A DNA stretch of 64,000 bases, taken from positions 1 through 64,000 of the IMG/VR virus record IMGVR_UViG_3300043473_000069; one strand, written 5' to 3'. A model generated the notes under the pieces. It saw only the letters and a list, made by a program, of their open reading frames with translations, did no database searches and was not told the origin of the DNA. The position numbers were made by a program, and so were the translations under genes. Source of the DNA: a virus (lineage: Duplodnaviria; Caudoviricetes). The first letter of the stretch is position 1, and every line of letters begins with the position of its first letter. Shown one piece after another: positions 3,701 to 63,063 of this stretch.

Positions 3701-3741
3701 ATGACGAGTTGACAGTGTGGGCGTCGTGCGAGTCGTGCCCC

Positions 3742-4182
3742 ATGTCCCTTAGGGCGTTCCTAGCAACTAGGCTCCCCAACATGCGGAAATGTCCAAAGTG
3801 TGGTATCAGCCGTGAGGAGATGGACTTCCTCAACCAAGCCGGTGTCCTCGTGAAGCGCTGTGTCCGTTGCCGCTCCCAGGGCGTCCGGGATCCCGTAACC
3901 GCTGCCCGAGAGAAGGCGTACCGCCAGGGGCTACGGAAGCAGGTCTTCGACCACTACGGCTGGAGTTGCCAGTGCTGCGGCGAGGACGAGCCCATCTTCC
4001 TCACCATCGACCACGTCAACAACGACGGGCACGAGGCCCGCAAGTTGGGCTTGAAGGGTGGCGGCTACACGTACCGGCTGATCATCCGTGCTGGGTTCCC
4101 GGACACGTACCAGGTGCTGTGCTTCAACTGCAATCGGGGCCGCTGGCTCAACGGCGGCGTGTGTCCACACCAGATGCCCTAA
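3742..4182 (+). CDS. HNH endonuclease with zinc fingers (start uncertain: 3742 or 3781)
   Basis: CPKC..CVRC, then CQCCG..LTIDHVNNDG..QVLCFNCN, the typical phage HNH pattern. Confidence 0.85.
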   Translation: MSLRAFLATRLPNMRKCPKCGISREEMDFLNQAGVLVKRCVRCRSQGVRDPVTAAREKAYRQGLRKQVFDHYGWSCQCCGEDEPIFLTIDHVNNDGHEARKLGLKGGGYTYRLIIRAGFPDTYQVLCFNCNRGRWLNGGVCPHQMP

Positions 4183-4244: not shown

Positions 4245-4652
4245 GTGGTGAGGGTGCTGGCCGCTGCGGCGTTGACGTTGCTGGCGCAGTGTGCGCCGAC
4301 GTGCGGGGCTGGGCCGGGGCAGATCTCGTGGGAGGGGCGACCGGCCGTTGGGGTGGTGGCGATGAACGGTCAGCCGTTGAGTGATGTCCAGGCGGCGCTG
4401 GACCGGGGGCTGGTGGTGGACATCGGCTACGAGGGGCACCATCACGTCGCCGGTCACTACAGCAGCCATGGCAGCGTGTTCGCCGCCGGGCCGAACCTGG
4501 ACCCTGGCGAGGACGTGTGGTTCGACGGTGAGGCCTACACGGTCACGGGACGGGAGTCGGCACCGGCCGGGGCCAAGGTGGTCTTCACCGAGGGCCTGAC
4601 CGTGCAGTACAGCGGGTGCGGCGGGGCCTGTCTGGTGCGAGCCCGCCCTTAG
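4245..4652 (+). CDS. Secreted sortase-fold protein (divergent)
   Basis: Signal peptide; VAGHYSSHGSVF..NLDPGEDV..YTVTG..LTVQYSGC..LVRA follows the sortase order AGH..F..L..GD..Y.V..LTLxTC..V.A. Confidence 0.55.
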   Translation: MVRVLAAAALTLLAQCAPTCGAGPGQISWEGRPAVGVVAMNGQPLSDVQAALDRGLVVDIGYEGHHHVAGHYSSHGSVFAAGPNLDPGEDVWFDGEAYTVTGRESAPAGAKVVFTEGLTVQYSGCGGACLVRARP

Positions 4653-4947: not shown

Positions 4948-5103
4948 GTGAAGAGGATCGGGAAGTGGATGTTGGTGTGGGTGGCGGCGAGCTTCGCCTT
5001 CACGGCGGCGTGGTCGCTGCTGATGTCGATGAGCAAGGGCTTGGAGACACAGCCTGACCGTCATCCGGGCACGGGCTACCTGCGGAGCGGGGGTGGCTGG
5101 TGA
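4948..5103 (+). CDS. Small membrane protein
   Basis: GGAG RBS and GTG start; hydrophobic WMLVWVAASFAFTAAWSLL; GTGA overlap with the next gene. Confidence 0.5.
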   Translation: MKRIGKWMLVWVAASFAFTAAWSLLMSMSKGLETQPDRHPGTGYLRSGGGW

Positions 5104-5429
5104 GGACGCTGGGACTGCTCTCGATGGTGGGCATCTTGCTGTGGGGCTGCTCCGACGACGACAGCAACGCCAGGGCCGACCTCCCGGCCACCAACCAGAT
5201 GAACGACGTGTCGGCCTCGATGACCGTCGTCTTCCCGGACGGCTATCCGAACTCGACGCACAAGTGCGTCACGCTCGCTGGCGTGGTCACCGGCATCTGG
5301 ACGACGACCGACCGCACGGTGATCTGGATCTACAACGACTGGGCCTGTGAGGGCGCCAACGTGGAGAAGGACATGACCGTGATCAACGGCGTGCCCCGAG
5401 CGATCGTGAATGCGACCAGCGGTGGCTGA
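5100..5429 (+). CDS. Putative lipoprotein
   Basis: Hydrophobic leader ending ILLWGC (lipobox-like), followed by a polar linker. Confidence 0.65.
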   Translation: MRTLGLLSMVGILLWGCSDDDSNARADLPATNQMNDVSASMTVVFPDGYPNSTHKCVTLAGVVTGIWTTTDRTVIWIYNDWACEGANVEKDMTVINGVPRAIVNATSGG

Positions 5430-60889: not shown

Positions 60890-60908
60890 TCTCTCTCCAC
60901 TGTGAGGT

Positions 60909-60963: not shown

Positions 60964-63063
60964 ATGTACAGGACCAAGACCATCGTGGGGGCGGCGCTCG
61001 TCGCCACGATCACGATGTTCACGACGACCGTGGCACGGGCCGAGGGTGAGGATCCGGCCCCCACGACCACGGTCGTAGAACAGGAGGAAGCTCCCACCAC
61101 GACGATGCAGATCGTCGTCCCCGTGGCTGATCCGGAGCCTCAGGCCGCTGAGCCTGAGCCCGCACCGGCCACCACCACGCCGACCACGGAGGACACCAAG
61201 CCCCCCGTGGTCGAGCCGGACCCCAACATGGAGCAGATGCCGGTCATCGTTGATGACTCGGCCACCCCGGCGACGGGGTCCATGGTGGAGGTCACGGCGC
61301 CGCCGACGACCAACGTCCAGCAGACGCATGATCAGGAGACGGTGATCACCGGGACCCAGGTGGCGCAGGCCACCACGGGGAACAACACGGCGATCAACGA
61401 CCAGGATCAGCCGAGCGGGGTTGCGGTCGGGGCTGGTACCTCCGTATCGACCGGCGAAGCCGATGCCATCGGCAGCCGGGACGAGAACACGGTGACCCAG
61501 ACGGCGGACGTGGTGCTGACCGGCGAGGCCGTCGCCAACCTGCTGCAGATCGCTCTGATCCTCAACATCGGAGCGGCCCTGGCGAACAGCGGGTCGAACG
61601 GCGTCCTCTCGACACCAGGAGGCTCCAGCAACCCTGGGGCCATCGGTAGCGGTGACGCCACGGCGATCGGCAACTCGATCGCCAGCTACATCACCCAGGC
61701 GGCGAACACGACGGCCGACAACGCCGTCGATGACTCCGCCTCGCAGTTGGCGATCAGCCTGTTCCTCGGGCTGGCGATCGCCAACAGTGGTACCAACTCG
61801 GTCCTCGGGAACGGCGTCGCCGGGTCCGGTGGCGGGATCGGTACGGGCGATGCGATGGCGATCGGGAACGACTCCATCACCGACATCACGCAGCGGGCCA
61901 TCCTGCTGGGTGCTGATCAGGCGACGCTGAACGTGCTGCAGCGGGCCACGGTGCTCAACCTCGGGTTCGCCCTCGCCAACAGTGGCCTCAACGACATCTC
62001 AGGTGTCGCTGGGAGCCTGCTGGCGGCGAGCGACGAAGAGGATGACCTCCTGGCCCAGCAGTTGTTCAGCATGCTCCTGCCAGCGCTCCTGCAGAGCTAC
62101 GGCTATGGCGCAGGGTCGGGCACCATCCAGAGCGGTGACGCCGCTGCCATCGGCAACCAGAGCGACACGCAGATCCTCCAGACGGCTGGGGCGATGGCGA
62201 CGGGGGACGGGATCGCTTCCATCCTCCAAGACGTCCTGGTGGCGAACGTGGGTGGCGCTGCGGCCAACTCAGGGCTCAACAGCCTCGGGTCGGCCAAGAC
62301 GCTGGACCCGCAGACGGCCACAGCGGTCGTCCAGATGGCTGCGTTCCTCGCCCAACTGCTGGCGATGGTGCACCACTCATCGAGCACGGCCACGCAACTG
62401 GCCGCTCAGACCCAGAGCATCCAGATCCCCTTCGGGGACCTGATCTTGACGCTCGACGGTCAGTTCGGTGCGATGGACACCTTCCTGCAGCAGGGTGAGG
62501 CGAGGGCCAACATCCGGCAGATCAGCATCATCGTCAGCCTCGGTGTGGCGCAGGCCAACAGCGGCCTCAACGCCGTGGCGACGATGTCGGACAGCAGGTT
62601 GCTGGCGGCGGTGAACGCCGTCCTCCCCGATGTCATCGGGTCGGGCGACGCCGACGCACGCAACCGGACCGTGGTCCAGATCTGTCAGCGGATCAACTCC
62701 ATCAGCGTGGAGTGCCTGGCCCCGCCGGTCGATGAGCCGGAGACACCGGTGACTCCTCCGACGCCAACGGGTGATACACCGGTTACGCCACCGTCTGACC
62801 CCGGTATCCTCCCGGACACAGGCGAGGCTCCCAACACGGTGATCATGCTCGATCCCGAGCCGATCCCGCAGGGGTTCCGGGCGCCGACTGCGGTGCCCAC
62901 GTCGGACTCGTCCACGCACGGACGGCAGGGGCTGCTGGCAGTCAGCGGCTCCAACGTCGGCAACATCCTCTGGGGTGCCAGCATGCTGGTCCTCCTGGGT
63001 GTGCTGCTGGCGTGCCTGGGCATCCGGCGCAGGCCGGTTGTCGGTACTCACTTCCGCAGCTAG
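60964..63063 (+). CDS. Cell-wall-anchored repeat protein with sortase-type sorting signal
   Basis: Signal peptide; repeated ANSG.N..I..GDA.AIGN..I.Q; Pro/Thr linker; LPDTG, then LAVSG, hydrophobic helix and RRR. Confidence 0.75.
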   Translation: MYRTKTIVGAALVATITMFTTTVARAEGEDPAPTTTVVEQEEAPTTTMQIVVPVADPEPQAAEPEPAPATTTPTTEDTKPPVVEPDPNMEQMPVIVDDSATPATGSMVEVTAPPTTNVQQTHDQETVITGTQVAQATTGNNTAINDQDQPSGVAVGAGTSVSTGEADAIGSRDENTVTQTADVVLTGEAVANLLQIALILNIGAALANSGSNGVLSTPGGSSNPGAIGSGDATAIGNSIASYITQAANTTADNAVDDSASQLAISLFLGLAIANSGTNSVLGNGVAGSGGGIGTGDAMAIGNDSITDITQRAILLGADQATLNVLQRATVLNLGFALANSGLNDISGVAGSLLAASDEEDDLLAQQLFSMLLPALLQSYGYGAGSGTIQSGDAAAIGNQSDTQILQTAGAMATGDGIASILQDVLVANVGGAAANSGLNSLGSAKTLDPQTATAVVQMAAFLAQLLAMVHHSSSTATQLAAQTQSIQIPFGDLILTLDGQFGAMDTFLQQGEARANIRQISIIVSLGVAQANSGLNAVATMSDSRLLAAVNAVLPDVIGSGDADARNRTVVQICQRINSISVECLAPPVDEPETPVTPPTPTGDTPVTPPSDPGILPDTGEAPNTVIMLDPEPIPQGFRAPTAVPTSDSSTHGRQGLLAVSGSNVGNILWGASMLVLLGVLLACLGIRRRPVVGTHFRS

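What the first reader, a model, noticed from the sequence alone, without database searches (positions are those of the whole stretch)
4245..4652. Miniature sortase-like enzyme in a phage, with a non-canonical active site
Seen: signal or lipoprotein-like leader (LLAQC), then QAALDRG, VAGHYSSHGSVF, LDPGED, YTVTG, LTVQYSGC and LVRA, in the order found in sortases. The catalytic His is present, but TLxTC reads TVQYS with a Cys two residues later. Inference: this is a cognate transpeptidase for the LAVSG protein at 60964, or a decoy that interferes with host sortase-assembled pili or receptors.
Basis: inference. Interest (0 to 1): 0.7.

Follow-up and report, generated by a model that had tools for sequence, protein, structure and literature searches.

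The report
Phage mini sortase with serine site
A tailed phage encodes a stripped-down, lipid-anchored copy of the bacterial sortase fold in which serine replaces the catalytic cysteine; it travels with phage-encoded wall-anchor proteins, so the phage may have its own way of handling proteins on the host surface.

Summary
Window 4245-4652 (+) is a real, selected 135-aa gene: a signal/lipobox-like leader followed by a ~112-aa domain. The domain folds as a sortase beta-barrel (AF2 pLDDT 86.8). The top 18 of 48,161 PDB representatives are all sortases (Z 12.4-8.0); the best non-sortase scores Z 4.1. Profile searches link it to sortases by sequence (SrtE1 E=1.7e-7; hhalign 99%).

The catalytic His (H71) is invariant. 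The catalytic Cys column holds Ser123. The Arg is not conserved. A Cys125/Cys129 pair is unique to this phage family. The three loops that wall the substrate groove are trimmed.

The family is rare: 9 clusters below 1e-10 among 1.84 billion representatives. Every context I examined is phage-like, and the family was not found in cultured phages or the sampled genomes. Its wider relatives are serine-type sortase-like proteins, including ones in Acidimicrobiia MAGs.

This phage encodes two sorting-signal proteins (LAVSG in the window, LPPTG at 69.9 kb) and no canonical sortase. A sister phage group keeps an LPxTG protein 0.8-2.2 kb upstream of its copy.

Catalysis is untested, and active-site geometry could not be measured. 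This scan noted serine-type sortases before in cellular genomes, but not in phages.

The parts
4245..4652 (+). Gene for the 135-aa miniature sortase-fold lipoprotein (GTG start, TAG stop)
   Evidence: ORF and translation. GC3 0.87 and conserved orthologues. Sortase fold.
4245..4304 (+). Leader: MVR + hydrophobic stretch + LLAQ-C16 (lipobox-like), then near-invariant C20
   Evidence: Read directly from the sequence. Homologues have canonical lipoboxes at this place: LSSC, LGSC, MASC, VASC, VSGC. Low pLDDT, no fold.
4452..4481 (+). G70-H71-YSSHGSVF motif; H71 (4455-4457) is the catalytic His equivalent
   Evidence: HMMER aligns it to LAGH251RNTHGEPF of SrtE1 and AGHRRTYG of SrtE. His251 is SrtE1's catalytic His (PMC5148588). 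Invariant in 29/29 sequences. It follows strand beta4 in the model, as in SrtE1.
4554..4589 (+). Short beta6/beta7 loop (residues 104-115), hypervariable between orthologues
   Evidence: 8 of 12 residues differ from the L003 orthologue, while the flanking motifs are unchanged. The model loop is about 10 residues, whereas SrtE1 has a 21-aa insertion here relative to class A enzymes.
4596..4631 (+). L118-TVQYSGCGGA-C129: the TLxTC-equivalent strand beta7 and a tight hairpin. Q121 is invariant; S123 (4611-4613) sits in the catalytic Cys column; C125 (4617-4619) and C129 (4629-4631) are a family-specific pair.
   Evidence: L-INS-i alignment of 29 sequences. Column 123 is C in P0019/P0032/P0034 and S (one T) elsewhere. 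C125 and C129 occur together in 12/12 core and 0/17 other sequences. Column 129 is Arg in P0016/P0017/P0028. Model strands are 117-124 and 127-134.
4638..4640 (+). R132, a possible catalytic Arg equivalent by spacing (Ser123 +9, as Cys320 to Arg329 in SrtE1), but not conserved
   Evidence: Column 132 is R in only 4 of 12 core members, otherwise Y/F/K. SrtE1 residues are from PMC5148588.
60964..63063 (+). Candidate partner: a 699-aa secreted protein (718 aa if read from the GTG at 60907). It ends in a full cell-wall sorting signal: LAVSG (62935-62949), a hydrophobic helix and RRRP. LPDTG lies 37 residues upstream of LAVSG.
   Evidence: Translation. Automated sorting-signal scan. Homologues carry LAFTG, LAATG, LPSTG or LPATG at the same place, and some are named LPXTG cell wall-anchored protein.

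Best explanation
The gene encodes a phage-borne, probably lipid-anchored, minimal member of the sortase superfamily. It belongs to a serine-type branch in which the TLxTC cysteine reads L-x-x-Q-[TY]-S. Once exported to the outer face of the host membrane, it most likely acts on the C-terminal sorting signals of the phage's own surface proteins: LAVSG on the 699-aa protein in the window, and LPPTG on a roughly 480-aa protein at 69.9-71.4 kb of the same contig. The proposed mechanism is sortase-like acyl transfer. His71 would act as general acid/base. Ser123 would be the nucleophile, forming an ester rather than a thioester intermediate. The invariant Gln121, on the same face of strand beta7, may help in place of the missing Arg. 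The Cys125-Cys129 pair would staple the very short beta7/beta8 hairpin as a disulfide. Shown here: the fold, homology to sortases, residue correspondence by alignment, confinement to phage-like contexts among those examined, and co-occurrence with sorting-signal proteins. Inferred: export and lipidation, catalysis, choice of nucleophile, the disulfide, the identity of the substrate, and whether the outcome is wall anchoring or release.
For: Fold: the top 18 structural matches are all sortases. Z 11.8 with rmsd 2.1 A over 103 residues to SrtE 5go6. Z 12.4 with rmsd 2.2 A over 105 residues to SrtA 5hu4 using the pLDDT 86.8 model, and the next non-sortase scores Z 4.1. All listed Foldseek PDB hits are sortases.
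Homology: nearly all weaker hits of the exhaustive profile search that I scanned carry Pfam Sortase. The bridging profile hits SrtE1 at E=1.7e-7. hhalign gives 99% probability, E=9e-18.
Active-site conservation: H71 is invariant in 29/29 sequences, Q121 is conserved in 28/29, and S123 is conserved in 25 of 26 non-Cys sequences, down to about 25-30% identity. That argues for a working site, not decay.
Tree: the core family is monophyletic (97/89). It is nested in the serine-type group and separate from canonical sortases (99/96).
Substrate link: the phage has two full sorting-signal proteins and no PF04203 sortase. L007/L008, L010, L047 and L049 each have an LPxTG protein 0.8-2.2 kb upstream on the same strand. 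A cellular serine-type homologue in an Ilumatobacteraceae MAG is convergent with a DUF11 protein ending in LPVSG + helix + RRSRR.
Location: other Cys residues in the family appear in co-varying pairs, as in exported disulfide-bonded proteins.
Against: No sortase with a serine nucleophile has been characterised, and none turned up in the paper searches.
The catalytic Arg is not conserved: R132 is present in only 4 of 12 core members.
The three loops that form the sorting-signal groove are cut to about 5, 10 and 2 residues (against PMC5148588), so canonical signal recognition is doubtful.
The protein itself gets no Pfam hit, and only 12.4 bits against the class E model, whose cutoff is 160.
The partner motifs differ between phages (LAVSG, LPPTG, LPATG). 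Host sortases could handle them, and related cellular genomes do carry canonical Cys sortases alongside the serine type.
The four tightly linked cassettes belong to one related phage group, so they count as one retained arrangement rather than four independent events. One lineage (L011/L012) showed no sorting-signal protein in the 16.5 kb available.
No background rate of sorting-signal proteins in phages was computed.
His-Ser geometry was not measured.
Confidence: 0.5

Rival explanations
1. Non-catalytic pseudo-sortase. The domain only binds a sorting signal, or the wall precursor, at the membrane surface. It would act as a decoy or inhibitor of the host sortase, or as a holder or chaperone for the phage's own sorting-signal proteins. 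This could change the host surface, for example to exclude other phages.
For: The Cys nucleophile and the Arg are both missing from their canonical columns, and the groove loops are trimmed. Nature does pair clearly inactive sortase homologues with substrates: Ilumatobacteraceae MAGs hold a homologue lacking both His and Cys (GRRATYG...LVLATADG) directly after a LAGTG/LASTG protein. The gene sits among early or accessory genes. In L011/L012 it lies in a small opposite-strand cassette.
Against: His71, Gln121 and Ser123 stay fixed across very divergent sequences. That is unusual for a site that no longer does chemistry, although a binding role could also conserve them.
Confidence: 0.27
2. Active cysteine enzyme with a relocated nucleophile. 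Cys125 (or Cys129), at the tip of the beta7/beta8 hairpin, takes over from the lost TLxTC cysteine, and Ser123 is only structural.
For: C125 and C129 are invariant in 12/12 core phage proteins and absent from all 17 relatives. The nearest outgroups carry a different extra Cys on beta8 (LV[FH]C). This hints that some thiol near the site is wanted.
Against: The two Cys always appear together and are spaced CxxxC across a two-residue turn. Other Cys in the family co-vary in pairs. Both points fit a disulfide in an exported protein. Ser123 is conserved well beyond the clade that has these Cys residues.
Confidence: 0.1
3. The sortase fold has been reused for an unrelated envelope function, for example binding or cutting peptidoglycan stem peptides. 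On this reading the co-occurrence with sorting-signal proteins reflects shared descent or host type, not function.
For: The linkage is tight in only one phage group; in the window the genes are 56 kb apart.
Against: Sorting-signal proteins appear in both sister subclades of the family, which have different genome layouts. A cellular serine-type homologue also lies beside one. Sortase-like genes and their substrates are rare in phages.
Confidence: 0.12

Closest known systems
Class E sortases of Actinobacteria (Streptomyces coelicolor SrtE1, PDB 5cuw; S. avermitilis SrtE, 5go5/5go6; Thermobifida fusca SrtE, 9iok)
   Same: Same eight-stranded barrel (Z 11.4-11.8, rmsd 2.1-2.5 A over 103-106 residues). 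Best sequence-profile match in the PDB (E=1.7e-7). Shared G-H-x-x-x-H-G-x-x-F motif with the catalytic His directly after beta4. The candidate partner's closest homologue carries the class E signal LAxTG.
   Different: About 112 residues against roughly 150-160. Lipobox-type leader instead of an N-terminal transmembrane anchor. Ser in the Cys320 column. Arg329 equivalent not conserved. The beta3/beta4 loop (home of the LAxTG-specifying Tyr229), the beta6/beta7 loop and the beta7/beta8 loop are all drastically shortened. Extra CxxxC hairpin. Phage-encoded.
Phage-encoded class B sortases of gut huge phages (bioRxiv 10.64898/2026.10.24.761521)
   Same: Sortase-fold genes in phage genomes, together with phage-encoded proteins that have a signal peptide and a C-terminal sorting signal.
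   Different: Those are full-length canonical SrtB with intact His/Cys/Arg. They are close to Bacillota enzymes, and the substrate gene is always immediately upstream. This one is a divergent miniature with Ser at the nucleophile position, high-GC and of actinobacterial affinity. In this phage it lies 56 kb from the candidate substrate.
Uncharacterised serine-type 'LQTS' sortase-like proteins (here: Ilumatobacteraceae/Acidimicrobiia MAGs; earlier scan notes: Patescibacteria, Chloroflexota)
   Same: Ser in the catalytic Cys column, invariant Gln two residues before it, the GH..HG..F motif, frequent lipoboxes, and a neighbouring sorting-signal protein in at least one cellular locus. The phage family is nested in this group on the tree.
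   Different: The phage core family is shorter. It reads Q-Y-S instead of Q-T-S and GHY/GHF instead of GHR. It has gained Cys125/Cys129; column 129 is Arg in the nearest outgroups. It was found only in phage-like contigs among those examined.

Membership tests
Sortase superfamily (Pfam PF04203, MEROPS C60 cysteine transpeptidases) | Eight-stranded sortase beta-barrel fold | tested here: met
   Two AF2 models. The top 18 of 48,161 chains are all sortases, Z up to 12.4, covering residues 24-135. Foldseek agrees.
Sortase superfamily (Pfam PF04203, MEROPS C60 cysteine transpeptidases) | Significant match to the family's sequence model | tested here: not met
   No PF04203 hit at E<=10 for the protein itself and none in the whole contig. 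Homology shows only through profiles: SrtE1 E=1.7e-7, hhalign 99%, and Pfam-positive weaker hits.
Sortase superfamily (Pfam PF04203, MEROPS C60 cysteine transpeptidases) | Catalytic His after strand beta4 | tested here: met
   H71 aligns to His251 of SrtE1. It is invariant in 29/29 sequences and follows strand 65-70 in the model.
Sortase superfamily (Pfam PF04203, MEROPS C60 cysteine transpeptidases) | Catalytic Cys in TLxTC at the end of beta7 | tested here: not met
   The column holds Ser123 (Thr in one homologue). Cys occupies it only in P0019, P0032 and P0034.
Sortase superfamily (Pfam PF04203, MEROPS C60 cysteine transpeptidases) | Catalytic Arg on beta8 | tested here: inconclusive
   R132 has SrtE1's +9 spacing but is present in only 4 of 12 core members. 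By motif alignment the Arg of the nearest outgroups falls on Cys129.
Sortase superfamily (Pfam PF04203, MEROPS C60 cysteine transpeptidases) | His and nucleophile side chains juxtaposed in the active site | not testable with these tools
   Model coordinates are not exposed to the script box. Only secondary structure and alignment ranges are returned.
Sortase superfamily (Pfam PF04203, MEROPS C60 cysteine transpeptidases) | Works with proteins that bear a C-terminal sorting signal (motif, hydrophobic helix, basic tail) | tested here: inconclusive
   Such proteins co-occur in the same phage (2) and just upstream in the sister phage group. No binding or processing test was possible.
Class E sortase (NCBIfam NF033747) | Score above the curated cutoff (160 bits) | tested here: not met
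   12.4 bits, E=0.1, residues 61-100 only.
Class E sortase (NCBIfam NF033747) | Long beta3/beta4 loop with the conserved Tyr (Tyr229 in SrtE1) that favours LAxTG | tested here: not met
   The loop is about 5 residues in the model, against 16 in SrtE1. Y62 lies in it but is not conserved in the family.
Serine-type 'LQTS' sortase-like proteins (uncharacterised group) | Ser in the Cys column, with invariant Gln at -2 and the GH..HG..F motif | tested here: met
   Alignment of 29 sequences. The tree nests the phage family in this group, 97/91 and 98/93 support.

The most novel reading that the evidence does not exclude
A phage carries its own minimal (~112-residue) serine-nucleophile sortase. It attaches or processes phage-encoded sorting-signal proteins on the host wall independently of the host's cysteine sortases. 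This would be the smallest natural sortase, and one that runs on an ester rather than a thioester intermediate.
Probability: 0.3. Interest if true: 0.85.

Novelty: new variant of a known kind. Interest (0 to 1): 0.7.

Why it matters
Sortases are textbook cysteine transpeptidases and widely used protein-ligation tools. A natural serine version in a 112-residue scaffold would change what is considered essential for the chemistry and could be useful for engineering. On the biology side, phage sortases were first described only in an October 2026 preprint, and only as canonical class B enzymes. A separate, divergent phage family that travels with phage-encoded wall-anchored proteins would show that phages of high-GC Gram-positive hosts also remodel the host surface. 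That has likely consequences for superinfection exclusion, adhesion and biofilm behaviour. The proposal can be tested directly with peptides and four point mutants.

Tried and rejected
- **Direct family scans:** Pfam and PHROGs scans of the protein gave nothing. A single-sequence PDB search gave only noise.
- **Cultured phages:** tblastn and megablast found no relative of the gene or the region. The helicase has only 24-26% identical relatives, so no host could be assigned.
- **Second match on the contig:** the hit at 98.1 kb lies antisense inside an Ala/Gly-rich plus-strand ORF and contains a stop. I judged it spurious.
- **L,D-transpeptidase (YkuD) idea:** suggested by 'SGC', but there is no Pfam hit and every strong fold match is a sortase. 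Dropped.
- **His2Cys2 metal site (H71, H75, C125, C129):** considered. H75 is shared with ordinary class E-like sortases that lack the Cys pair, and it is Ala in P0015. I kept this only as an unexplained possibility.
- **ESM Atlas:** scores <=0.80, which is noise level.
- **Isolate and MAG species genomes:** no core-family member found, and none in 300 sampled Acidimicrobiia genomes.
- **Reciprocal co-occurrence test:** a viral-contig search with the small LPxTG protein family found no relatives.
- **Neighbourhoods of cellular serine-type genes:** L016, L021 and L022 were uninformative.
- **Promoter/terminator scan:** nothing near the gene.
- **Complex prediction:** mini-sortase with residues 628-692 of the LAVSG protein.
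- **Remaining contig of L011:** the rest of the 35.6-kb contig could not be fetched, because look-ups were exhausted and only half of a record may be held.

Full report
**What is there.** Window 4245-4652 (+) is a 135-codon ORF with a GTG start. The window is the first 64 kb of a 100,668-bp IMG/VR viral contig, which CheckV puts at 85% complete. The contig is a tailed phage with a contractile tail: terminase, portal, major head protein, tail sheath and baseplate genes are all recognisable. It has no close cultured relative.

The ORF is a real gene. GC by codon position is 0.73/0.54/0.87. Close orthologues sit in syntenic early regions of related phage contigs, after a DUF6011 protein and a helicase. 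Against the 78%-identical orthologue in L003, amino-acid changes cluster in the leader (residues 4-13) and in residues 104-115. Residues 47-86 (apart from A69S) and 116-133 are unchanged.

**Fold and homology.** Direct Pfam and PHROGs scans are blank, and NCBIfam gives only a 12-bit hint of class E sortase. An AF2 model from 8 sequences (pLDDT 75.6) and a second from 28 sequences (pLDDT 86.8, pTM 0.78, domain core above 90) show the same topology: eight strands and one helix over residues 24-135.

With the second it is SrtA 5hu4 (Z 12.4, rmsd 2.2 A, 105 residues). The best non-sortase has Z 3.9-4.1. All listed Foldseek PDB hits are sortases too.

Sequence evidence agrees:
- An exhaustive profile search of 1.84 billion representatives found 32 hits. 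Nine clusters below 1e-10 form the core family.
- Nearly all the weaker hits I scanned carry Pfam Sortase.
- A bridging profile hits SrtE1 (5cuw) at E=1.7e-7, plus class D and class A sortases.
- hhalign between the core family and the Pfam-positive group gives 99% probability.

**Active site.** HMMER aligns VAGH71YSSHGSVF to LAGH251RNTHGEPF of SrtE1. His251 is that enzyme's catalytic His and directly follows beta4 (PMC5148588), just as H71 follows strand 65-70 in the model.

A 29-sequence L-INS-i alignment shows:
- His71 is invariant and Gln121 is conserved in 28/29.
- The catalytic Cys column holds Cys only in three 'LQTC' relatives. It holds Ser in all others, Ser123 here, with Thr in one sequence.
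- Cys125 and Cys129 occur together in 12/12 core members and in none of 17 relatives.
- Column 129 is Arg in the three nearest outgroups.
- R132 has SrtE1's +9 spacing from the nucleophile column, but only 4 of 12 core members have it.

The canonical triad is reduced to His, plus Ser in the nucleophile column.

The protein is 'miniature' because the beta3/beta4, beta6/beta7 and beta7/beta8 loops are about 5, 10 and 2 residues.

**Where the family lives.**
- Every core-family context I could examine is phage-like. Neighbours include ssDNA-binding protein, Thy1, Tad3, RecT/YqaJ, RuvC and a PG_binding lysin. Two contigs (L009, L048) were too short to judge.
- The family was not found in 50,697 cultured-phage records, in GTDB species genomes, or in 300 sampled Acidimicrobiia genomes.
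- Relatives with Ser but without the Cys pair occur in a temperate phage (P0028, next to an integrase) and in Ilumatobacteraceae/Acidimicrobiia MAGs. Those MAGs also have ordinary Cys sortases.
- On a maximum-likelihood tree the canonical sortases form one clade (99/96). The core family is monophyletic (97/89) at the end of a ladder P0028 > P0017 > P0016, inside the serine-type group, with LQTC proteins basal.
- In the library searched, phage sortases appear only in an October 2026 preprint. These are canonical class B enzymes with an intact triad in gut huge phages, and its authors state sortase had not been documented in viruses before. I found no paper on natural serine-type sortases.

**Link to sorting-signal proteins.** I scanned every ORF of all fetched loci and the whole contig for motif + hydrophobic helix + basic tail.
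- This phage has two such proteins: the 699-aa protein at 60964-63063 (LAVSG, helix, RRRP) and a second one outside the window at contig 69888-71411, minus strand (LPPTG, helix, RRKRV). It has no canonical sortase.
- Homologues of the 699-aa protein carry LAFTG, LAATG, LPSTG or LPATG at the LAVSG position. So LAVSG is a true sorting-signal position with a derived Thr-to-Ser change.
- In the sister subclade, L007/L008, L010, L047 and L049 each encode a small LPxTG protein (signal peptide, ~90-aa domain, Thr-rich stalk). It lies 0.8-2.2 kb upstream of the mini-sortase on the same strand. In L010, L047 and L049 a 2OG-Fe(II) oxygenase gene sits directly upstream of the mini-sortase; in L007/L008 it abuts the LPxTG gene.
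- These four share synteny and a conserved downstream gene. I therefore count them as one long-retained cassette, not four independent events.
- One lineage (L011/L012) showed none in the 16.5 kb available.
- In an Ilumatobacteraceae MAG, a cellular serine-type homologue is convergent, about 37 bp away, with a 1563-aa DUF11 protein ending in LPVSG + helix + RRSRR.

**Interpretation.** The fold, the homology and the phage setting are solid. A functional connection to sorting signals is well supported but circumstantial. Catalysis is open.

Strict conservation of His71, Gln121 and Ser123 down to about 25-30% identity favours a working site, with Ser as nucleophile. The Cys125/Cys129 pair is best read as a disulfide staple, because other Cys in the family also co-vary in pairs. 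Against catalysis stand the loss of Cys and Arg and the trimmed groove loops. There is also a precedent in the same MAGs: a sortase homologue lacking both His and Cys sits beside a LAGTG protein.

My odds are about 0.5 for a sortase-like enzyme acting on the phage's own sorting-signal proteins, 0.27 for a non-catalytic binder or decoy, 0.10 for a relocated Cys nucleophile, and 0.12 for an unrelated envelope function.

**Earlier notes of this scan** report serine-for-cysteine sortase clades beside sorting-signal proteins in Patescibacteria and Chloroflexota. They are unchecked AI notes on other DNA. They agree with what I found independently here, and they mean the serine type as such is not new to the scan. 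A phage-borne miniature version with the CxxxC pair was not among the notes returned.

**Limits.** There is therefore no docking test, no habitat information and no expression evidence. The host is unknown. High GC, LAxTG-type signals and the Acidimicrobiia relatives point to Actinomycetota.

Noticed in passing
G000:C1:69888-71411 (minus strand; 5.9 kb beyond the window's end): A second phage-encoded wall-anchor-type protein. It has a lipobox leader (LLAGC), long Thr-rich stalks and two globular regions, and ends in LPPTG + hydrophobic helix + RRKRV.
   Followed up: partly
window 60964-63063: Homologues of the LAVSG protein carry LAFTG, LAATG, LPSTG or LPATG at the same position. Several lie on 80-266 kb contigs, and some are named LPXTG cell wall-anchored protein. 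The phage copy therefore has a derived Thr-to-Ser change in its sorting motif.
   Followed up: partly
L007 4451-7996; L010 1852-4678; L047 3048-5342; L049 3359-6211: A conserved cassette in a sister phage group: a small LPxTG protein, a 2OG-Fe(II) oxygenase (PF13640), the mini-sortase and a conserved 73-93-aa gene. It sits among early genes, including Thy1 and the anti-defence family Tad3. The window's phage has no PF13640 gene.
   Followed up: partly
L039 and L040 (Ilumatobacteraceae MAG contigs), ORF 2-1168 and the match at about 1501-1746: A sortase homologue lacking both the catalytic His and Cys (GRRATYG ... LVLATADG) lies directly downstream of a protein ending in LAGTG or LASTG + helix + basic tail.
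   Followed up: no
L018 4584-5672 (+) and 5709-10400 (-): A cellular serine-type sortase-like gene is convergent with a 1563-aa DUF11-repeat surface protein whose sorting motif is LPVSG. It has Ser where Thr is usual, like the phage's LAVSG.
   Followed up: partly
window 5100-5429 (+): A 109-aa ORF with a canonical lipoprotein leader (LLWGCSDDD) lies 450 bp downstream of the mini-sortase gene. It has no family match.
   Followed up: no
window 3709-4182 (+): The upstream neighbour is a Cys-rich protein with zinc-ribbon matches and an HNH-like DHVNNDGH motif. It is absent from the syntenic relatives L004-L006, so it is probably a mobile endonuclease insertion.
   Followed up: no
window 4554-4589 (residues 104-115 of the protein): The loop that corresponds to the sortase beta6/beta7 specificity loop is the most variable part between close orthologues: 8 of 12 residues differ from L003.
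   Followed up: partly
BFVD entries A0A0E3M3L1 (Streptomyces phage TP1604) and A0A6M3T8X0: Two uncharacterised viral proteins give weak Foldseek matches to the model (E 3e-3 and 8e-4, TM about 0.45-0.49). They may be other sortase-like folds in actinophages.
   Followed up: no
G000:C1:98102-98392 (minus strand): A weak 33% match to the protein with an internal TGA. It lies antisense inside an Ala/Gly-rich plus-strand ORF and is probably a compositional artefact.
   Followed up: partly
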